From Candidatus Pacearchaeota archaeon (GTDB lineage Archaea > Nanobdellota > Nanobdellia > Pacearchaeales > GW2011-AR1), in NCBI GenBank assembly GCA_018304325.1, contig JAGVWM010000021.1, positions 1 through 47,866 on the forward strand: a stretch of DNA of 47,866 bases, read 5' to 3'. A program made the position numbers and the translations under genes. This document shows positions 14,955 through 31,386 of this stretch, one piece after another. The first letter of the stretch is position 1; the number at the start of each line of letters is the position of its first letter. Below the pieces are notes generated by a model. The model was not told the origin of the DNA. It ran no database searches and saw only the letters and a program-made list of their open reading frames with translations.

Positions 14955-16671
14955 TTATTCACATTTATGATCTACACAAGTATTTTTTCCAATTTTAATA
15001 CAATCTTCATCAAATTTACAATTTCCTAAGAAACATTTTCGAGGCTTGTCATATACAGGTTCACCATTAATCATTTGAATATCACAGATATACCCCTTTA
15101 GACAGTCATTATTTCTCCTACATTCATCACATTTCCCAAAAAAGTCATTACAGTATGGTCGTTCTGATGGACAGTCTTCATTTTTAATGCATTCCACACA
15201 TTTCGATCGTGCGGGCAATTTTTGGCATTTGTTTAATCCAGGAAGAACTCCAGAATCACTTAAAAATTTACATTCATTATCAGTTAAACAGACCGAACAT
15301 AGAGCTCCACCCATCCCTCCGGTAACACATACTATCCCTCCATTTTTGTCGAAATTACAGTCGGGATTTCTATATCCTTCAGATGTTTTAGTATTTTTTT
15401 TAGGAGTGCATTCTGAACAAATATTATCAACACAATATTTGTATGTGCCAGAATCTTTACATTCGGAATTTTTTCCAGAGAAGCATGTTGGACCATCTGG
15501 GTACATAGCTACACATTTTTCATTAATACACTCTTTGCCTTCTGGACAGTCACTACTATAAATACATTCAGATATCTCTTCTTCTTCAGCCACACAAGAA
15601 GCTGGAAAATTTGGTTCTTGCTTACATATCTCATTTTTATCACACTCAATATTATTCAAGTAGAAATTTTGATCTTTCTTGCATACTATTTGAAAATCTT
15701 CTTCAGGAGTATCTTCATTGCATTTCTTTGTATTTTTATTACATTTTTTTAATTCATCGTCTTTTGAAATGCAACTTCCCTGACTGCATATTTCACCATT
15801 TTCACAATTCTTTTTTTCCCATCCAAATCCGTTGCTTCTGCATATTTTAAAATCTGTTTTATCCTCAGGTTTAGCTTTAAAATCTGCTTTATTCTCAGTT
15901 TTAGCTATGCATTTAGTTGCTCCAGGAGTGCATCTTATACCTCTTTCATTTCCTCCAGCAACACAAACATTTTCATAATTGCAAATTAATCCTTCGTTAC
16001 AACCTCCTCCGCACTCTCCTCCACAACCATCATTTCCGCATTCTGTTCCAAGGCAGTTCAGCCATGCATTGCATGAGCTTCCTGTACACACACCTGCATT
16101 GCATGTTTCTCCTGTTGAGCACGATCCACAAGTAACATATCCTCCACAACCATCTAACCAAGTACCACATTCATATCCATAAGATGGACATGTTTGCGGA
16201 ACACAATTTCCACCATCATCACTTACACAATCTCCATAATCATTGCAAGTCTCTCCATTATTGCAGTCGTTATTTTCATAACACTCTCCACAATATCCAT
16301 TTTTGCAGTATGGCTCCCTATGTCTTGAGTCATCCCGGCAAAATTCATTAGTTCCATCATGCCTATTATTATCATCTAGTTCTCCATCATCTGAAAGTTC
16401 CCCATCATCTGAATTAAGGGAAACATCACATTCCACGCCCTGAACTACATTACCAGTTATTCCAATAACATTACCTGATATAACTTCTCCAGTTAAACTG
16501 GATTTATTTTTAATTAATAATCCGATAATAATTAATGCAAGAACTAAAATAAAGTTAAACTGGATTTATTTTTAATTAATAATCCGATAATAATTAATGC
16601 AAGAACTAAAATAATAACACAGATAGCAATTAATAATCTTTTATTAAAATTAGTTTTATTTTTGTTCACCA
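14955..16671 (-). pseudogene. Cys-rich surface protein whose signal-anchor is disconnected by a 62-bp tandem duplication
   Basis: The ATG at 16671 gives MVNKNKTNFNKRLLIAICVIILVLALIIIGLLIKNKSSLT, then a frameshift and stop at 16510. Removing one 62-bp copy joins it in frame to ...GEVISGNVIGITGNVVQGVECDVSLNSDDGE (ORF 14955..16436). It is a paralogue of 24677..26359. Confidence 0.65.
16491..16614. repeat. Perfect 62-bp tandem duplication (2 copies)
   Basis: GTTAAACTGGATTTATTTTTAATTAATAATCCGATAATAATTAATGCAAGAACTAAAATAA(A) occurs at 16491-16552 and again at 16553-16614. Confidence 0.85.
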
Positions 16672-18892: not shown

Positions 18893-19585
18893 ATGGAAAG
18901 TGTAGAGTGTGGAATAGTTGATGTAGAACCAAGAAGTTCACTTCCAGAAACAAGATTAGAAACAAGATTACTTAGAGTTCCACACAAAAATGGGATATTG
19001 GTTGTTAGATATCCTGCTTTTGGACCAAATTCTTATTCAAGTAATTTAGAAAGTATGGGAAAAAGATATTTTCATTCAACCCGATTTCCAGATATTTCAT
19101 TCAGACCAGCAACTACACCTGAATCTGTTTCAGCATCTGCTTATAAATTTGGAAAAATAGCAAAGAAAGAAATTTTTAATCCAAATTGTTTACAAGTAGG
19201 ACCTATTGTAAGAACATCAGAAGGAGTTTTTGCAAATACTAAAGAAGTTGATGAATCAGTTCTTAAATTTGCATATACAGAATATGAAACATTTAAGAAT
19301 GGATTTCAAGATTCTAGAGATTTTTCTGAAAGTGGTTTAGCAAGGCTATTAGAGCACACTTGTGAAAGCTCAGCACCAAATCTAAGAGAAATTTCTTCAG
19401 CTGAAAATTATCCAAATGGAGTTAAGGTTTTTGGATTTGATAGTGTTAAGGAACCTGTATTAAGAGTTGCCGGTCTGTATTCCTACGGGAGCGGATTGCG
19501 TGTTGATGGCGGCCTTGGTGACGGGGGCGGTTATGCTTTTGGGGTGCGTAGTACAGACGCCTTAGGCGTCGTCGAAAAAAATTAG
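18893..19585 (+). CDS. DGR target protein (C-terminal variable region)
   Basis: The last ~37 codons (GLYSYGSGLRVDGGLGDGGGYAFGV...) align to the A-rich template at 19840-19914. No signal peptide. Confidence 0.7.
   Translation: MESVECGIVDVEPRSSLPETRLETRLLRVPHKNGILVVRYPAFGPNSYSSNLESMGKRYFHSTRFPDISFRPATTPESVSASAYKFGKIAKKEIFNPNCLQVGPIVRTSEGVFANTKEVDESVLKFAYTEYETFKNGFQDSRDFSESGLARLLEHTCESSAPNLREISSAENYPNGVKVFGFDSVKEPVLRVAGLYSYGSGLRVDGGLGDGGGYAFGVRSTDALGVVEKN
19475..19546 (+). repeat. DGR variable repeat (VR1)
   Basis: CTG TAT TCC TAC GGG AGC GGA TTG CGT GTT GAT GGC GGC CTT GGT GAC GGG GGC GGT TAT GCT TTT GGG GTG, in frame with ORF 18893..19585. Confidence 0.75.
19556..19570 (+). promoter_or_regulatory. 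GC-rich hairpin just 3' of VR1 (candidate DGR target-recognition element)
   Basis: GACGCC-TTA-GGCGTC. It is absent at the equivalent position after the TR. Confidence 0.5.
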
Positions 19586-19839
19586 AAGGTTTTATTAATA
19601 AATAATTCTTGTTCATCTAGTCTTAGTTTGGTATTAATGCCTTTCTAGGGCCACACGCCTATTAACCAGTACATCATTTAAATTTATTTTATGTTATAAA
19701 ATACAATCTTGACATTAAGTAATAATTTTAATAAGAATAAATTATGAAATATGAAAAGATGGTGCTTCCTTTGAGAAAACTCATTGACTAGAAGTCCTTT
19801 TTAGGAAAGGTTAAGAGGCTATGTAGTTCTGTCGCTTAT

Positions 19840-19914
19840 CTGAATTCCAACAGGAACAGATTACATGTTAATGGCAACAACCTTGATAACAGGAACGGCT
19901 TTGCTTTTGGAATG
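19840..19914 (+). repeat. DGR template repeat (TR)
   Basis: CTG AAT TCC AAC AGG AAC AGA TTA CAT GTT AAT GGC AAC AAC CTT GAT AAC AGG AAC GGC TTT GCT TTT GGA ATG. It is non-coding, and 8 of its 25 triplets are AAY. Confidence 0.75.
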
Positions 19915-20027
19915 GCCCTAGTTCTAAGACCTTTTATTTTTTTAATGCTCTATAAAAAGATTACAAAATATCCACCCATAAATTTTCGCATAATTAAATT
20001 TATTAATCCTTATTCTATATTAGTTTA

Positions 20028-21311
20028 ATGAAAAGAGGAATTGCAATATTTTTTATTCTAATATTTAGCTTTACATTAATGTCTGCTTTAAACATAACTC
20101 TTGATAAAAATAGTTTTAACAAAGGAGAAACTCTTATTTCAAGTATTTCTGGTGTTATAACAGAACCTATTGATAAATCAAATATAGGTTTTTATAATGG
20201 TCATGTGCAAATCCCAATAACTTTTGATATTGTTAAAATTAACGAAACATATTACATCTATGGCATATTGCCATTTCAGGAAGGAAATTATTCATTAAGA
20301 GTAAATGAAGTTAATTATAAAGAGTTTAATCAAAATAAAAAACAAGACTTAGATGTTAATTTCACAGTTAGTTCAGGTGTTGCTGATTTTGCAATAAATC
20401 CAGGTGCTTTTATAACAAGTTCAAGCCAGGATTTAACTTTATCTAATTATCTTGATAAACAAATAACTATTTATTATGAAACTGATAACGAGAAAAATAA
20501 ATCATTTACAATTCCACCACAAGAAAATAAAAAGTTTTCACTAAATACACAAGATTTTGATAATACTTATGCAGGAATGGTTATTTTTACATCAAGTACA
20601 GGTTTTGTTTATAATATTCCTGTTTATGTAATAAAAAATGAAACAAATAATGTTATAAACAAAAATGAAACAGAAAGACTTTCTTTTTCTTTAACTAGTG
20701 TTGATGCTCAGCTAAAAAAAGGAGAATCATATGTTTATACATCAAATATAAAGAATAAAGGTAATAACTTGGAAAACATAAGTATTTTCGTTTCTAAAGA
20801 TATTAAAAAGTACGTTAACATTTCAATTTCTAATTTAAGTTTAGATAAGGAAGAAGAAAAAGAAATAAAAATAGGTGTTTTGTTCGATAAAACGGGAAAT
20901 TTTTCAGGAACAATAACTGCTACAACATCTAATTTTTCTGATGTTATTAATTTAGAATTCTCAATTGGAGAAGATACAGTACCTGTAAGTTCAACATTTA
21001 ATAACCGAACATGCTCAAATTTAAATGGGAAAACATGTTCAAGTTCTCAGAAATGTTCTGGGAATATTGAATTTACAAAAGATGGAAGTTGTTGTATAGG
21101 TTCATGTGTTAATAAAAATATTACCCCAGCTACTGGAAGTTCAACAAATTGGATTGCAGTTGTAGTAATTGTTTTAATATTAATTGCTATTGCTGGCTTC
21201 TTTTTTTGGAAAATAAAGAAAACAAAAAAAACTCCAAGAGATGTTTTAAAAGATAAGTCAAAGTCTTTTTCAGATAGATATGAAACTAAGGGTAAATTAA
21301 GAAATTACTAA
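20028..21311 (+). CDS. Surface protein with signal peptide, beta-rich ectodomain, Cys-rich stalk and C-terminal TM anchor
   Basis: MKRGIAIFFILIFSFTLMSA; ...CSNLNGKTCSSSQKCSGNIEFTKDGSCCIGSC...; TM WIAVVVIVLILIAIAGFFFW. Confidence 0.6.
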   Translation: MKRGIAIFFILIFSFTLMSALNITLDKNSFNKGETLISSISGVITEPIDKSNIGFYNGHVQIPITFDIVKINETYYIYGILPFQEGNYSLRVNEVNYKEFNQNKKQDLDVNFTVSSGVADFAINPGAFITSSSQDLTLSNYLDKQITIYYETDNEKNKSFTIPPQENKKFSLNTQDFDNTYAGMVIFTSSTGFVYNIPVYVIKNETNNVINKNETERLSFSLTSVDAQLKKGESYVYTSNIKNKGNNLENISIFVSKDIKKYVNISISNLSLDKEEEKEIKIGVLFDKTGNFSGTITATTSNFSDVINLEFSIGEDTVPVSSTFNNRTCSNLNGKTCSSSQKCSGNIEFTKDGSCCIGSCVNKNITPATGSSTNWIAVVVIVLILIAIAGFFFWKIKKTKKTPRDVLKDKSKSFSDRYETKGKLRNY

Positions 21312-28388: not shown

Positions 28389-28763
28389 TCACTTTTTCTT
28401 AAACTCAACATTTTTCATATTTTCAAATTCCTTATCTCCTGTAACAAAATAATATCCATTTTTAATAGAAAATATATATCCTACTGCATCAAAAAAAGAA
28501 ATATTTTGTTTTTTATGTTCATACCTGAACTTTACTGCTTCAATTAGGATTTCTATACTAACCTTTTTTGAGTATATCTGCAATTTTTTTAACCATAATT
28601 CAGCTTCATTTTCCCCATATTCCCTTAATAAAATTCCATAATATTCTGCTAAAGTTAAGTCATTTACAATAAACTCTTCATTTAGATAACCAGAAAATTT
28701 TTCATTACCTAAATATATTTCAATAAGAGCATAGGTATCTAAGAATTTGATCATTTTAGCCAT
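28389..28763 (-). CDS. vapC: PIN-domain toxin (VapC-like)
   Basis: FLDTYALIE..., FFDAVGY, VTGDKEF acidic positions. It overlaps the upstream AbrB-type gene by 13 nt. Confidence 0.65.
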   Translation of the reverse strand: MAKMIKFLDTYALIEIYLGNEKFSGYLNEEFIVNDLTLAEYYGILLREYGENEAELWLKKLQIYSKKVSIEILIEAVKFRYEHKKQNISFFDAVGYIFSIKNGYYFVTGDKEFENMKNVEFKKK

Positions 28764-28978
28764 TTACTATCATATTCTTTTCTAAAATCTTCAACCATTT
28801 TTTTAGCAGGTTTTTTAAATTTAGCTTTACCAAACATTTCTTTTAATACATTATTTTTCTTTTCAATGTTTATTATGATTTCTTCTCCAGACTTCAAATT
28901 TAATTTAATAATAGTTTCTATAGGTATAACTACTCCAATTGAATTTCCCCATTTTTTTGTTTTAACTTCAATCGCCAT
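28751..28978 (-). CDS. vapB: AbrB/SpoVT-type antitoxin (VapB-like)
   Basis: KKWGNSIGVVIPIETIIKLNLKSGEEIIINIE. Confidence 0.65.
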   Translation of the reverse strand: MAIEVKTKKWGNSIGVVIPIETIIKLNLKSGEEIIINIEKKNNVLKEMFGKAKFKKPAKKMVEDFRKEYDSKWLK

Positions 28979-30033: not shown

Positions 30034-30783
30034 ATGAACACAAAAAAACTGACTGGAAGATTTGAATGGCAAAGGCCAGAAGTAATGCCTTCTTTTGTTA
30101 AAGGTGATGATGCCCAAGAATTATGTTATGCTGTCAAAGAAGGTTTTGGATTTTTTGATTACGATGCTAATGAAAAATTAATGAAAGGAAGCAATCCTTT
30201 CATTTCAGCTAGAATTGACACAGAAGTAAGACCTTTAGGATTAAGGGTTGCTAACTTAAGAGATTTAAGCAGACCAGAAGTTATGGCTATGGTTGAAGGC
30301 AGATATTATTCTGATAGCCCAGTTTTAGTTGTTAGGAGCAATAAAGATTCTAATACAAGAAACCTGCCTCTTATAAAAATAATTTCAGAGCTGACAGAAG
30401 GTGTAGATGGGAGAGTTGAATTTCCTTTTATGCTAACTGGTTATGATGTTGTTAAATTGCCAGAAGATGAAGATGGTTATGGAGTAGATATTGTTAAAAG
30501 AGAGGATTTTAAAGCTGTGCATGATGACAGACTTTCTGGAAAATATAATGGCTGGAAATTTGATAATGTTGATGAAATAGGTTTGCCTTCAGGTTTAAAT
30601 AAATCAAAAGGATCTAGGACTTTATATACAAAGGATGAAGGGCTTGCTGGGTTCTGCTTGGACTGGGACTTAGACTTGGTCTCGGTTGATGGTAACCTTC
30701 AGGGTTCGAATGCTATTGGTCGGGTAGTCGTCGTAAGCGCCTTCAGCGCTTCGCAAAATTTGGATAAATATATAGAAGATTAG
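30034..30783 (+). CDS. Second DGR-target-like protein (VR-like C-terminus), directly abutting the RT remnant
   Basis: The C-terminus LAGFCLDWDLDLVSVDGNLQGSNAIGRVVVV shares the scaffold L-x-V-[DN]-G-x-L...[AF]-[FI]-G with VR1 and the TR. It is A-poor and is followed by a GC hairpin. Confidence 0.55.
   Translation: MNTKKLTGRFEWQRPEVMPSFVKGDDAQELCYAVKEGFGFFDYDANEKLMKGSNPFISARIDTEVRPLGLRVANLRDLSRPEVMAMVEGRYYSDSPVLVVRSNKDSNTRNLPLIKIISELTEGVDGRVEFPFMLTGYDVVKLPEDEDGYGVDIVKREDFKAVHDDRLSGKYNGWKFDNVDEIGLPSGLNKSKGSRTLYTKDEGLAGFCLDWDLDLVSVDGNLQGSNAIGRVVVVSAFSASQNLDKYIED
30658..30723 (+). other. VR2-like segment (no cognate TR in window)
   Basis: TTG GAC TGG GAC TTA GAC TTG GTC TCG GTT GAT GGT AAC CTT CAG GGT TCG AAT GCT ATT GGT CGG. 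The GTT GAT GGT AAC CTT block aligns to TR GTT AAT GGC AAC (AAC) CTT. Confidence 0.4.
30735..30751 (+). promoter_or_regulatory. GC-rich hairpin 3' of VR2-like segment
   Basis: AAGCGC-CTTCA-GCGCTT. Confidence 0.45.
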
Positions 30784-31378
30784 GGGATATTGCTTAAAAG
30801 CAGATATAAAACATTACTTTGAAGAAGTTGATAATGATATTTTATTAGAAATAATAAAGAGAAAAATAAAAGATGAAAAAGTTATATGTCTTATAGAAAA
30901 GATTTTAGGAAACAATTCTGTTGGGAAGCATTCAGACAAAGGAATGCCATTAGGCAATTTAACTTCCCAATTTTTTGCAAATATTTATCTTAATGAATTA
31001 GACTATTTTGTCAAACATAAATTAAAAGCTAAATATTATATAAGATATGTTGATGATTTTATCATTCTCCATAATTCAAAATCACAACTAAAAGAATGGA
31101 AAAATGAAATTAATAACTTTTTAAAAAATGGGCTGAAGTTAGAACTGCATCCAGACAAATCAAAGATTATTTCGCTTTCAAGTGGAGTTGACTTTGTTGG
31201 ATTTATAAATTTTTATTATTTTAAATTACTAAGAAAAAGAAACATAAAAAACATTGAAAGAAAAATTAAAATGTTTAATGAAGGTTTAATTAGCAAGGAT
31301 AAGTTGTTAGAAAGTTTTCAAGGATGGAAGGCATATGCAAAATGGGCAGATAGTTATAAATTTAATAAACAATTTTAA
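30776..31378 (+). pseudogene. DGR-type reverse transcriptase, 5'-truncated (fingers motifs 1-2 missing)
   Basis: The frame is open from 30776: KIRGYCLKADIKHYFEEVDNDILL...GMPLGNLTSQFFANIYLNELD...YIRYVDDFIILH...GVDFVGF. The LGxxxSQ and YVDD motifs are DGR-RT-like. Only ~200 aa are present, and homology starts immediately after the upstream gene's stop. Confidence 0.7.
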
Positions 31379-31386
31379 TAAGTGGA

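What the first reader, a model, noticed from the sequence alone, without database searches (positions are those of the whole stretch)
19475..19914. Adenine-specific template/variable repeat pair: a diversity-generating retroelement in an archaeal context
The non-coding segment 19840-19914 aligns to the last codons of ORF 18893..19585 (19475-19546). By hand I count 19 substitutions. Seventeen of them are at template adenines (mostly A to G, two A to T) and only 2 are at non-A positions. 8 of 25 template triplets are AAY, the codon bias typical of DGR templates. Adenine-restricted TR/VR divergence is the defining DGR signature. DGRs are known in DPANN archaea but are rare elsewhere in archaea. 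This target has no signal peptide and no obvious C-type-lectin motif that I can recognise.
Basis: partly seen in the sequence, partly recalled or inferred. Interest (0 to 1): 0.85.

Follow-up and report, generated by a model that had tools for sequence, protein, structure and literature searches.

The report
Archaeal DGR cassette with truncated RT
This is a real diversity-generating retroelement template/variable repeat pair in a DPANN (Pacearchaeota) archaeon, but it is of a type described since 2015, and the only reverse transcriptase on this contig is a truncated remnant, so this copy is probably decaying.

Summary
Segment 19840-19914 (TR) aligns to 19475-19546 (VR, the 3' end of ORF 18893-19585) with 19 substitutions. 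Seventeen are at template adenines (15 A>G, 2 A>T) and 2 are elsewhere (Fisher p=1e-9). Eight of 25 template codons are AAY. The VR also lacks one codon.

The contig is from Candidatus Pacearchaeota (DPANN), where such elements are common. Every cis feature matches the published Nanoarchaeota DGR type:
- IMH TGGGGT and IMH* TGGAAT;
- a GC hairpin inside the target gene;
- a target whose only significant PDB fold match is AvpA (5IOO, C-type lectin fold).

The Rfam RT-16 RNA (19621-19827) sits directly 5' of the TR.

No intact RT is present. The only RT (30785-31378) lacks about 133 N-terminal residues. A roughly 0.8-kb deletion, seen in four other assemblies, fused it to a second target gene (30034-30783, VR2) and removed that gene's TR.

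Relatives of target 1 never have an adjacent RT, so these cassettes are served in trans. This copy shows decay: non-A mismatches, a VR indel, a mutated hairpin loop and a 24-aa deletion in the target.

Verdict: a new member of a known kind, of modest interest.

The parts
18893..19585 (+). Target gene 1 (230 aa), an AvpA-like variable protein. It carries an in-frame 72-nt (24-aa) internal deletion at 19267|19268 relative to all homologues.
   Evidence: 148 homologues, all unnamed and without Pfam hits, from Pacearchaeota/Nanoarchaeota. The deletion is seen in the protein and DNA alignments. The AF2 model of the intact homologue P0003 has pLDDT 92.4, and its only significant PDB fold hit is 5IOO_A, AvpA.
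19463..19546 (+). VR1, the variable repeat (core 19475-19546). It ends in the IMH motif TGGGGT at 19540-19545.
   Evidence: The TGGGGT/TGGAAT motifs are described for DUSEL4 Nanoarchaeota DGRs in PMC4372165.
19556..19570 (+). GC hairpin downstream of VR1, inside the coding sequence: GACGCC-TTA-GGCGTC. The loop is TTA rather than the family's GAA.
   Evidence: DNA fold gives -6.7 kcal/mol and a 6-bp stem. Sister loci L009 and L003 have a GAA loop. A GRA loop is reported as highly constrained in PMC4372165.
19621..19827 (+). RT-16 RNA motif (Rfam RF03019), lying between VR1 and TR1 and abutting the TR.
   Evidence: 81.1 bits against a gathering score of 50, with the full model matched. The same element occupies the same position in L009, L003, L010, L011 and L012. 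It is also found in 18 of 20 RT loci of other DPANN genomes, and in most of those with a usable RT start call it ends about 80-130 nt upstream of the RT start.
19828..19914 (+). TR1, the template repeat (core 19840-19914). It has 25 adenines, 8 AAY codons, and the IMH* motif TGGAAT at 19908-19913.
   Evidence: It is 94/94 identical to the TR of L098 and differs at 2 positions from the TRs of L009, L097 and L099.
19914..19943 (+). Post-TR tail GGCCCTAG-TT-CTAAGAC. It is complementary to the 5' strand of RT-16 (GTCTTAG at 19620-19626) and to CTAGGGCC (19645-19652). An oligo-T run follows at 19932-19943, which I infer to be an archaeal terminator.
   Evidence: Motif positions are. The complementarity covaries across 23 loci: the longest helix averages 7.4 bp for cognate pairs against 5.5 bp for non-cognate pairs, p=5e-7.
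30034..30783 (+). Target gene 2 (249 aa), from a different family. It has a G+C-rich, A-poor VR2 (about 30640-30733) and a hairpin AAGCGC-CTTCA-GCGCTT (30735-30751). No cognate TR is present in the window.
   Evidence: VR2 is 14% A against 35% in the rest of the gene. The family alignment shows hypervariable C-terminal positions. The model has pLDDT 91.6, with only weak C-type-lectin fold hits.
30785..31381 (+). 5'-truncated DGR-type reverse transcriptase remnant, covering residues about 134-326 of a roughly 335-aa enzyme. It retains ADIKHYF, LGNLTSQ and YVDD.
   Evidence: Pfam RVT_1 positions 69-204 of 205 only. The same junction occurs in L001, L002, L004 and L005. Sister allele L003 has target-RT-16-TR-RT at the same site.

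Best explanation
Segments 19463-19546 and 19828-19914 are the variable and template repeats of a DPANN-type diversity-generating retroelement cassette in a Pacearchaeota chromosome.

Inferred mechanism, from established DGR biology. An RNA comprising the RT-16 element, TR1 and a short 3' tail is transcribed. A DGR reverse transcriptase copies the TR and misincorporates opposite adenines. The cDNA then replaces VR1 at the 3' end of an AvpA-like C-type-lectin-fold gene. Targeting uses the IMH (TGGGGT, against TGGAAT in the TR) and the GC hairpin just downstream.

In this target family the cassette never has its own RT, so the enzyme must act in trans.

In this strain the only RT on the contig was destroyed. 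A microhomology (AGAAG) deletion of about 0.8 kb removed its first ~133 codons together with the neighbouring RT-16 and TR2. Cassette 1 has also accumulated damage since it was last rewritten.

I therefore think VR1 records past mutagenic homing and is most likely no longer being diversified in this strain. My confidence that this is a DGR TR/VR pair is about 0.95. My confidence that it is currently inactive is about 0.6.
For: What is shown:
- Adenine specificity: 17/23 A against 2/49 non-A, p=1e-9.
- IMH/IMH* motifs and hairpin, matching PMC4372165.
- RT-16 RNA abuts the TR here and in 5 RT-less cassettes, and lies upstream of the RT (with the TR in between, where resolved) in 18 of 20 RT loci.
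- Target fold matches AvpA, 5IOO.
- Three VR alleles at this locus differ at 26 columns, 20 of them at TR adenines.
- Sister cassettes are cleaner: L009 13 A / 0 non-A, L010 16/1, L003 17/1.
- No RT motif within 9-21 kb in five target-1-family loci.
- The RT remnant matches residues 134-326 only.
- The deletion allele was assembled independently in four other samples.

Signs of decay in this copy:
- 5 non-A mismatches and a 3-nt VR gap over 84 nt.
- Two substitutions in TR1 itself.
- Hairpin loop TTA instead of GAA.
- A 24-aa deletion removing the end of a helix and two strands, modelled at about pLDDT 98.
- VR1 is identical in three assemblies.
Against: - The rest of the genome is not available; it is not among the GTDB representatives. 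An intact RT elsewhere cannot be excluded, and DPANN genomes often carry several (PMC4372165).
- TR1 keeps all its adenines and an intact RT-16.
- L098 carries an identical TR1 with a different VR.
- VR2 differs between two carriers of the deletion allele at three putative AAT codons.
- The last two points hint at recent activity in the population.
- The three assemblies with identical VR1 may sample a single clonal population.
- L011 has a similarly 'dirty' pair (12 A / 5 non-A plus an indel), so the damage may be tolerable.
Confidence: 0.8

Rival explanations
1. The cassette is still active. An intact DGR RT encoded elsewhere in this Pacearchaeota genome uses the RT-16/TR1 RNA in trans and continues to rewrite VR1, and possibly VR2 from a remote TR.
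For: - All relatives of target 1 lack an adjacent RT, yet several have clean A-only TR/VR pairs.
- Several DPANN genomes hold 2-3 RT loci.
- TR1 is identical in L098, which has a different VR.
- VR2 differs at putative AAT codons between two carriers of the deletion allele.
- RT-less partial DGRs were also left open as 'remotely diversified' in PMC4372165.
Against: - VR1 is identical in window, L095 and L096.
- The pair carries non-A mismatches, a VR indel and TR substitutions that one round of homing would erase.
- The hairpin loop is not GRA.
- Both alleles of the only known RT locus in this population are defective: a deletion in one, and a frameshift shared by four assemblies in the other.
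- The VR difference in L098 is confounded by recombination of the whole gene body, which is 87-88% identical to the window upstream of the VR.
Confidence: 0.35
2. The similarity is an ordinary decayed duplication, or a chance match in an AT-rich genome, and the A-bias is compositional.
For: The genome is 30% G+C and A-rich. A-tolerant scans give many spurious matches to poly-A-rich DNA.
Against: - Fisher p=1e-9, with TR composition taken into account.
- The direction is A in the non-coding copy to G/T in the coding copy.
- The same architecture, with RT-16 and IMH/IMH*, recurs in many genomes.
Confidence: 0.02
3. The A>G excess (15 of 17) reflects adenosine-deaminase-type editing or hypermutation rather than reverse transcription.
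For: There is a strong A>G bias in this allele.
Against: - Two A>T changes occur here.
- Sister alleles have roughly equal A>G and A>T: L009 7/6 and L098 7/7.
- The TR/VR repeat architecture, the RT remnant and the RT-16 RNA are all DGR features.
Confidence: 0.02
4. The truncated RT and the fusion to target 2 are a mis-assembly of this contig.
For: Repeats such as TR/VR often break or mis-join short-read assemblies. L005 starts inside VR2.
Against: The same junction appears in four independent assemblies from other samples (L001, L002, L004, L005), with only a 6-nt TAGGGG indel between them.
Confidence: 0.03

Closest known systems
DUSEL4 Nanoarchaeota DGRs and their RT-less 'partial DGRs' (Paul et al. 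2015, PMC4372165)
   Same: - IMH TGGGGT and IMH* TGGAAT.
- The hairpin lies inside the target gene.
- Orphan target proteins.
- TR/VR sites without an RT.
- The RT of SCGC AAA011-G17 is 67% identical to the window's remnant (L047).
   Different: - The hairpin loops here are TTA and CTTCA rather than GRA.
- The only RT is truncated.
- One TR codon (AGA) can mutate to a stop, whereas the paper reports no nonsense risk.
AvpA, archaeal variable protein A (PDB 5IOO; Handa et al. 2016, PMC5006420)
   Same: It is the only significant PDB fold match of the target-1 family model (E=1.3e-4, probability 1.00, TM 0.45/0.54, 221 columns). It is a C-terminal VR on a C-type-lectin fold, in nanosized archaea.
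   Different: - Sequence identity is 18%.
- There is no sequence-level hit, even with a 44-sequence profile.
- RMSD is 9.2 A, so this is a distant relative.
- The window's copy lacks 24 residues of the fold.
Bordetella phage BPP-1 DGR (mtd / avd / TR / brt)
   Same: The logic is the same: adenine-mutagenic reverse transcription of a TR RNA, homing to a VR marked by an IMH and a hairpin/cruciform, and a CLec target. A structured RNA next to the TR is needed there too (Rfam RT-10, in the TR-RT spacer; PMC5737381).
   Different: - No Avd homologue was found.
- The structured RNA (RT-16) lies 5' of the TR rather than 3' of it.
- The RT is not adjacent.
- The target has no evident secretion signal, judging by eye from the N-terminal sequence; this was not tested with a predictor.
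RT-16 RNA motif (Rfam RF03019; Weinberg et al. 2017, PMC5737381)
   Same: There is a full-length match above the gathering score at 19621-19827.
   Different: The motif was published only as 'near RT genes', with no assigned role. Here it sits between VR and TR, even where no RT is adjacent.

Membership tests
Diversity-generating retroelement (DGR) | Two near-repeats whose differences fall at adenines of one copy (the TR) | tested here: met
   17 of 19 substitutions are at TR adenines, p=1e-9. Over the full 84 nt the tally is 18 against 5.
Diversity-generating retroelement (DGR) | VR at the 3' end of a protein-coding gene; TR outside it | tested here: met
   The VR occupies codons 191-218 of the 230-codon ORF 18893-19585. 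The TR is intergenic.
Diversity-generating retroelement (DGR) | An intact DGR-clade reverse transcriptase in the element or genome | tested here: inconclusive
   The window has one RT, with the DGR motif LGNLTSQ and YVDD, but it covers only residues about 134-326. The rest of the genome could not be retrieved.
Diversity-generating retroelement (DGR) | IMH at the VR 3' end, differing from IMH* at the TR 3' end | tested here: met
   TGGGGT at 19540 against TGGAAT at 19908, as in PMC4372165.
Diversity-generating retroelement (DGR) | Inverted repeat (hairpin/cruciform) just downstream of the VR | tested here: met
   GACGCC-TTA-GGCGTC at 19556-19570, -6.7 kcal/mol.
Nanoarchaeota/DPANN DGR subtype | Hairpin loop is a GRA trinucleotide | tested here: not met
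   The loop is TTA at VR1 and CTTCA at VR2. Sisters L009 and L003 have GAA.
Diversity-generating retroelement (DGR) | Accessory protein Avd | tested here: not met
   No Pfam or NCBIfam hit of that kind among the ORFs flanking either cassette. The intact sister locus L003 has only RT-16 and the TR between target and RT. Avd is not universal.
Diversity-generating retroelement (DGR) | VR hypervariable in populations while the TR is constant | tested here: inconclusive
   Between assemblies there are three VR alleles, and 20 of 26 variable columns are at TR adenines. However, VR1 is identical in three assemblies and recombination confounds the comparison. No reads are available.
AvpA-like C-type-lectin-fold variable proteins | CLec fold carrying the VR at the C-terminus | tested here: met
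   The Foldseek top hit, and the only significant one, is 5IOO_A, on a pLDDT-92 model. There is no sequence-level match.
RT-16 RNA (RF03019) | Covariance-model score above Rfam's gathering threshold | tested here: met
   81.1 bits against 50, model positions 1-158 of 158.

The most novel reading that the evidence does not exclude
RT-16 is the dedicated RNA scaffold of Avd-less DPANN DGRs. It abuts the TR, and its 5' strand pairs with a covarying tail just 3' of IMH*. The TR would then be presented as a closed loop, with its 3' end (the cDNA start) held next to the RT-16 core. Because each target carries its own RT-16/TR module, one RT could serve several dispersed cassettes in trans. In this picture, flipped hairpin loops (GAA to TTA/TTC) and RT loss would be the ways a lineage freezes its variable proteins.
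Probability: 0.4. Interest if true: 0.55.

Novelty: new member of a known kind. Interest (0 to 1): 0.3.

Why it matters
As a DGR in a DPANN archaeon it adds little. Such elements, their AvpA-like targets and their RT-less fragments have been described since 2015-2017.

Its value is as a worked example of how these cassettes are built and how they die:
- It links a curated RNA motif of unknown function (RT-16) to the position immediately 5' of the TR.
- It shows that a whole target family keeps its own RT-16/TR module without a local RT.
- It documents, across independent assemblies, a deletion that destroyed the RT and one TR while leaving the targets behind.

These points give concrete constructs for testing how Avd-less archaeal DGRs prime and target cDNA.

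Tried and rejected
- A whole-window, ungapped scan for further A- or T-specific repeat pairs (60-nt windows, direct orientation) found only noise and a tandem duplication. It also missed TR1/VR1 because of the indel.
- An A-tolerant search for a TR matching VR2, on both strands, gave only matches to poly-A-rich DNA. There is no TR2 in the window.
- Pfam and NCBIfam gave nothing for either target protein.
- A 44-sequence profile of the target-1 family and the single target-2 sequence found no sequence relative in the PDB.
- Profile-profile comparison of the two target families was negative.
- The target-2 model has no significant PDB fold match, only weak C-type-lectin hits.
- The genome-contig scan did not contain this genome, so I could not look for a second RT.
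- The single metagenome scan, using an anchor between VR and RT-16, returned only one extra contig, of the L009 lineage.
- I first read L098's VR codon TTT as proof that the present TR1 was used recently. I rejected this because A>T mutagenesis of the ancestral TAT gives the same result.
- Paul et al. 2017 (Nature Microbiology) could not be opened.

Full report
**1. Observation**

The sequence is as described. With a single 3-nt gap, TR 19840-19914 aligns to VR 19475-19546 with 19 substitutions: 15 A>G, 2 A>T, 1 C>T and 1 T>A. Seventeen of 23 aligned template adenines are changed, against 2 of 49 other bases (Fisher p=1.0e-9). Eight of 25 template codons are AAY. Each segment's only significant match in the window is the other (E=1e-6). 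The VR is 60% G+C and 10% A, in a gene that is otherwise 33% G+C and 36% A.

Homology also runs 12 nt further 5'. Over the full 84 nt the count is 18 adenine-site and 5 other mismatches.

**2. Host and setting**

ORF 18893-19585 is identical to an NCBI protein from 'Candidatus Pacearchaeota archaeon' on a 47,866-bp contig, which is this window. The neighbours are chromosomal genes: PCNA, primase, Hjc resolvase, a class II aminoacyl-tRNA synthetase, RadA and a PIN/MazE pair. The region is syntenic with another archaeal MAG contig (L011). The host is therefore DPANN, the archaeal group in which DGRs are already known to be frequent. Relatives of the RT fragment were found at 333 places in species-representative genomes, nearly all labelled Pacearchaeota, Woesearchaeota or Nanoarchaeota, and several genomes had two or three copies.

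**3. Anatomy of cassette 1**

In order along the + strand:
- target gene 18893-19585;
- VR1 19463-19546, ending in TGGGGT (19540);
- a 6-bp GC hairpin GACGCC-TTA-GGCGTC (19556-19570), still inside the ORF;
- the stop codon at 19583;
- the Rfam RT-16 RNA at 19621-19827 (81 bits, gathering score 50, full-length);
- TR1 19828-19914, ending in TGGAAT (19908);
- a tail GGCCCTAG-TT-CTAAGAC;
- an oligo-T run at 19932-19943.

TGGGGT/TGGAAT as IMH/IMH*, and a hairpin lying inside the target gene, are exactly the features reported for DUSEL4 Nanoarchaeota DGRs (PMC4372165). That paper reports 'highly constrained GRA' loops. Sister loci have GAA, but this window has TTA.

**4. The target protein**

The family has 148 detectable members. 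None has a functional name (the few with a source name are 'hypothetical protein') or a Pfam hit, and the named ones come from Pacearchaeota or Nanoarchaeota. An AlphaFold model of P0003, built on a 44-sequence alignment, has mean pLDDT 92.4. P0003 is 99% identical to the window protein except for one indel. Its only significant PDB fold match is 5IOO_A, AvpA, 'Accommodation of massive sequence variation in Nanoarchaeota by the C-type lectin fold' (E=1.3e-4, probability 1.00, TM 0.45/0.54). A sequence profile finds nothing in the PDB. The expected fold is therefore present but invisible at sequence level.

The window's copy alone lacks 24 residues (SLLNKCEKVNGIWLYQDNEPELID) that its closest homologues carry and that are matched by a segment in every other family member aligned. 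This is a 72-nt in-frame deletion at 19267|19268. In the model those residues form the end of a helix and two strands, at about pLDDT 98.

**5. The reverse transcriptase**

A motif scan finds one RT in the window, with the DGR signature GMPLGNLTSQFFAN...YVDD. In its frame the open stretch starts at 30785 and corresponds to residues 134-326 of a 335-aa relative. It covers Pfam RVT_1 positions 69-204 of 205. Upstream in that frame there are only stop codons. Full-length relatives are 320-345 aa.

Directly upstream, ending at 30783, lies a second target gene. Contig L003, from a sister strain at the same chromosomal site, shows the complete layout: target (VR), RT-16, TR, RT. Its TR/VR pair has 17 A-site mismatches and 1 other. 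The window allele is a deletion of about 0.8 kb between AGAAG microhomologies. It removed the tail of target 2, the RT-16, TR2 and the first ~133 RT codons. Consistent with this, the whole window has only one RT-16. The same junction occurs in four other assemblies (L001, L002, L004, L005), so it is not a mis-assembly. The alternative allele (L003, L006-L008) carries a frameshift shared by all four assemblies, between residues 177 and 186. Both known alleles of this RT locus therefore look defective.

**6. Target 2**

ORF 30034-30783 (249 aa) belongs to a different family, with no profile similarity to target 1. Its C-terminal region is A-poor (14% against 35%). It is followed by a hairpin AAGCGC-CTTCA-GCGCTT. 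Its homologues vary at the corresponding positions. The model has pLDDT 91.6 but only weak, non-significant C-type-lectin matches. No TR for it exists in the window.

L005 begins inside VR2. It differs from the window at five bases, which are the first two positions of three codons (GGT/AAT, AAT/TAT, ATT/GAT). This is what three AAT template codons would produce.

**7. Is cassette 1 alive?**

Relatives of target 1 never have an RT nearby. There is no RT motif in 9-21 kb around five loci. Yet they keep RT-16 and a TR with clean pairs: L009 13 A / 0 other, and L010 16/1. Service in trans is therefore the normal state for this family. PMC4372165 left the same question open for its RT-less fragments. 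Across three VR alleles at this locus, 20 of 26 variable columns lie at TR adenines.

Evidence that this particular copy has not been rewritten for some time:
- It has 5 non-A mismatches and an indel.
- There are two substitutions in TR1 itself, where the VR keeps the ancestral TR state.
- The hairpin loop is non-GRA.
- The target gene carries the 24-aa deletion.
- VR1 is identical in three assemblies.
- There is no working RT at the only known locus.

Evidence for possible recent activity in the population:
- L098 has an identical TR1 (94/94) and a different VR. However, its gene body is recombinant, which confounds the comparison.
- VR2 differs between two carriers of the deletion allele.
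- The rest of the genome is unavailable.

I put the probability that VR1 is currently not being diversified at about 0.6.

**8. RT-16**

The motif was published only as one of 19 RNAs found near RT genes. Only RT-10 was tied to a DGR (PMC5737381). No paper in the library assigns RT-16 a role.

Here it lies between VR and TR in every cassette examined. It was detected in 18 of 20 RT loci from other genomes, and in most of those with a usable RT start call it ends roughly 80-130 nt before the RT start codon, with a TR in between.

The 5' strand of its first stem is complementary to a short tail 10-25 nt after IMH*, and the pairing covaries. Examples are GTCTTGGTAT/ATACCAAGAC, TCCTGGCCATT/AATGGCCAGGA, GTCCTGGA/TCCAGGAC and CCTAGCCATTT/AAATGGCTAGG, with GTCTTAG/CTAAGAC in this window. 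The longest perfect helix averages 7.4 bp for cognate pairs against 5.5 bp for non-cognate pairs over 23 loci (p=5e-7).

From this I infer, but have not shown, that the TR is held as a loop closed by this helix.

**9. Comparison and novelty**

This is a member of the DPANN/Nanoarchaeota DGR type (PMC4372165), with an AvpA-like target (PMC5006420). It works like the Bordetella phage BPP-1 paradigm in logic. It differs in lacking Avd, in having its structured RNA 5' of the TR, and in separating the RT from the cassette. It is a new member of a known kind.

The RT-16 link and the documented decay path are modest additions.

Noticed in passing
window 19620-19626 and 19914-19930; loci L015, L017, L025, L027, L030, L036, L047 and others: The 5' strand of the first RT-16 stem is complementary to a tail just 3' of the TR's IMH*, and the pairing covaries between loci. 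The cognate longest helix averages 7.4 bp against 5.5 bp for non-cognate pairs, p=5e-7 over 23 loci. In the window the tail GGCCCTAG-TT-CTAAGAC can pair with both strands of that stem.
   Followed up: partly
L095, roughly 1090-1218 (aligned to window 19828-19919): This contig has the same VR1 as the window, but its 'TR' carries 13 adenine-site changes and 1 other change relative to TR1. Half of the changes are shared with VR1 and half with the VR of L098. It is either mutagenic homing or gene conversion into the TR itself, or a chimeric short-read assembly. The contig ends right there.
   Followed up: partly
window 19562-19564 and 30741-30745: Both VR-proximal hairpins in this genome have lost the family's GAA loop, which encodes the conserved E of DAEGV / SAEGA. 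They now read TTA and (C)TTC(A). TTC is the reverse complement of GAA, which suggests loop inversion. Three other target-2-family members also encode L (P0255, P0261) or V (P0265) at this position instead of E.
   Followed up: partly
window 30703-30716 against L005 1-20: VR2 differs between two carriers of the same RT-deletion allele at five bases. These are the first two positions of three codons and are consistent with AAT template codons. L005 starts inside VR2. L004 and L005 also lack 6 nt (TAGGGG, 30781-30786) at the deletion junction.
   Followed up: partly
L003 2330-2393; L006, L007, L008: The non-deleted RT allele carries a frameshift shared by four independent assemblies, between RT residues about 177 and 186, next to an (AG)n run (AGAGAGAGAGA). 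It is either a pseudogene or a slippage-prone switch.
   Followed up: no
window 19267|19268: There is a 72-nt in-frame deletion in target gene 1, unique to this contig among more than 120 homologues. It removes a well-ordered helix end and a beta-hairpin of the predicted fold.
   Followed up: yes
window 19858-19860 (TR1 codon AGA): One template codon (AGA) can mutate to TGA, so this TR is not free of nonsense risk, unlike the TRs described in PMC4372165. The theoretical repertoire is about 1.3e13 protein variants, counting the TGA outcome of the AGA codon as one of the states.
   Followed up: yes
L098 about 1290-1314 (aligned to window 19540-19552): The VR of L098 has a 1-nt insertion inside the IMH (TGGGGTT). 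It truncates the target protein to 240 aa, before the hairpin-encoded residues.
   Followed up: no
window 16491-16614: There is a perfect 62-bp tandem duplication (2.0 copies, 100% identity) at the 5' end of the minus-strand cysteine-rich gene 14955-16436. Its length is not a multiple of 3, so it probably disrupts the gene's N-terminus, or it is an assembly artefact.
   Followed up: partly
window 20028-21311: The gene immediately downstream of TR1 encodes a 427-aa protein with a hydrophobic N-terminal stretch (judged by eye, not run through a predictor) and an LPXTG-like C-terminal anchor match (NCBIfam TIGR01167, E=2.7e-5). It is probably a cell-surface protein. It is not conserved next to the cassette in all relatives.
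   Followed up: no
window 28389-28978: A PIN-domain toxin and a MazE/AbrB-type antitoxin pair lie on the minus strand, between the two DGR remnants.
   Followed up: no
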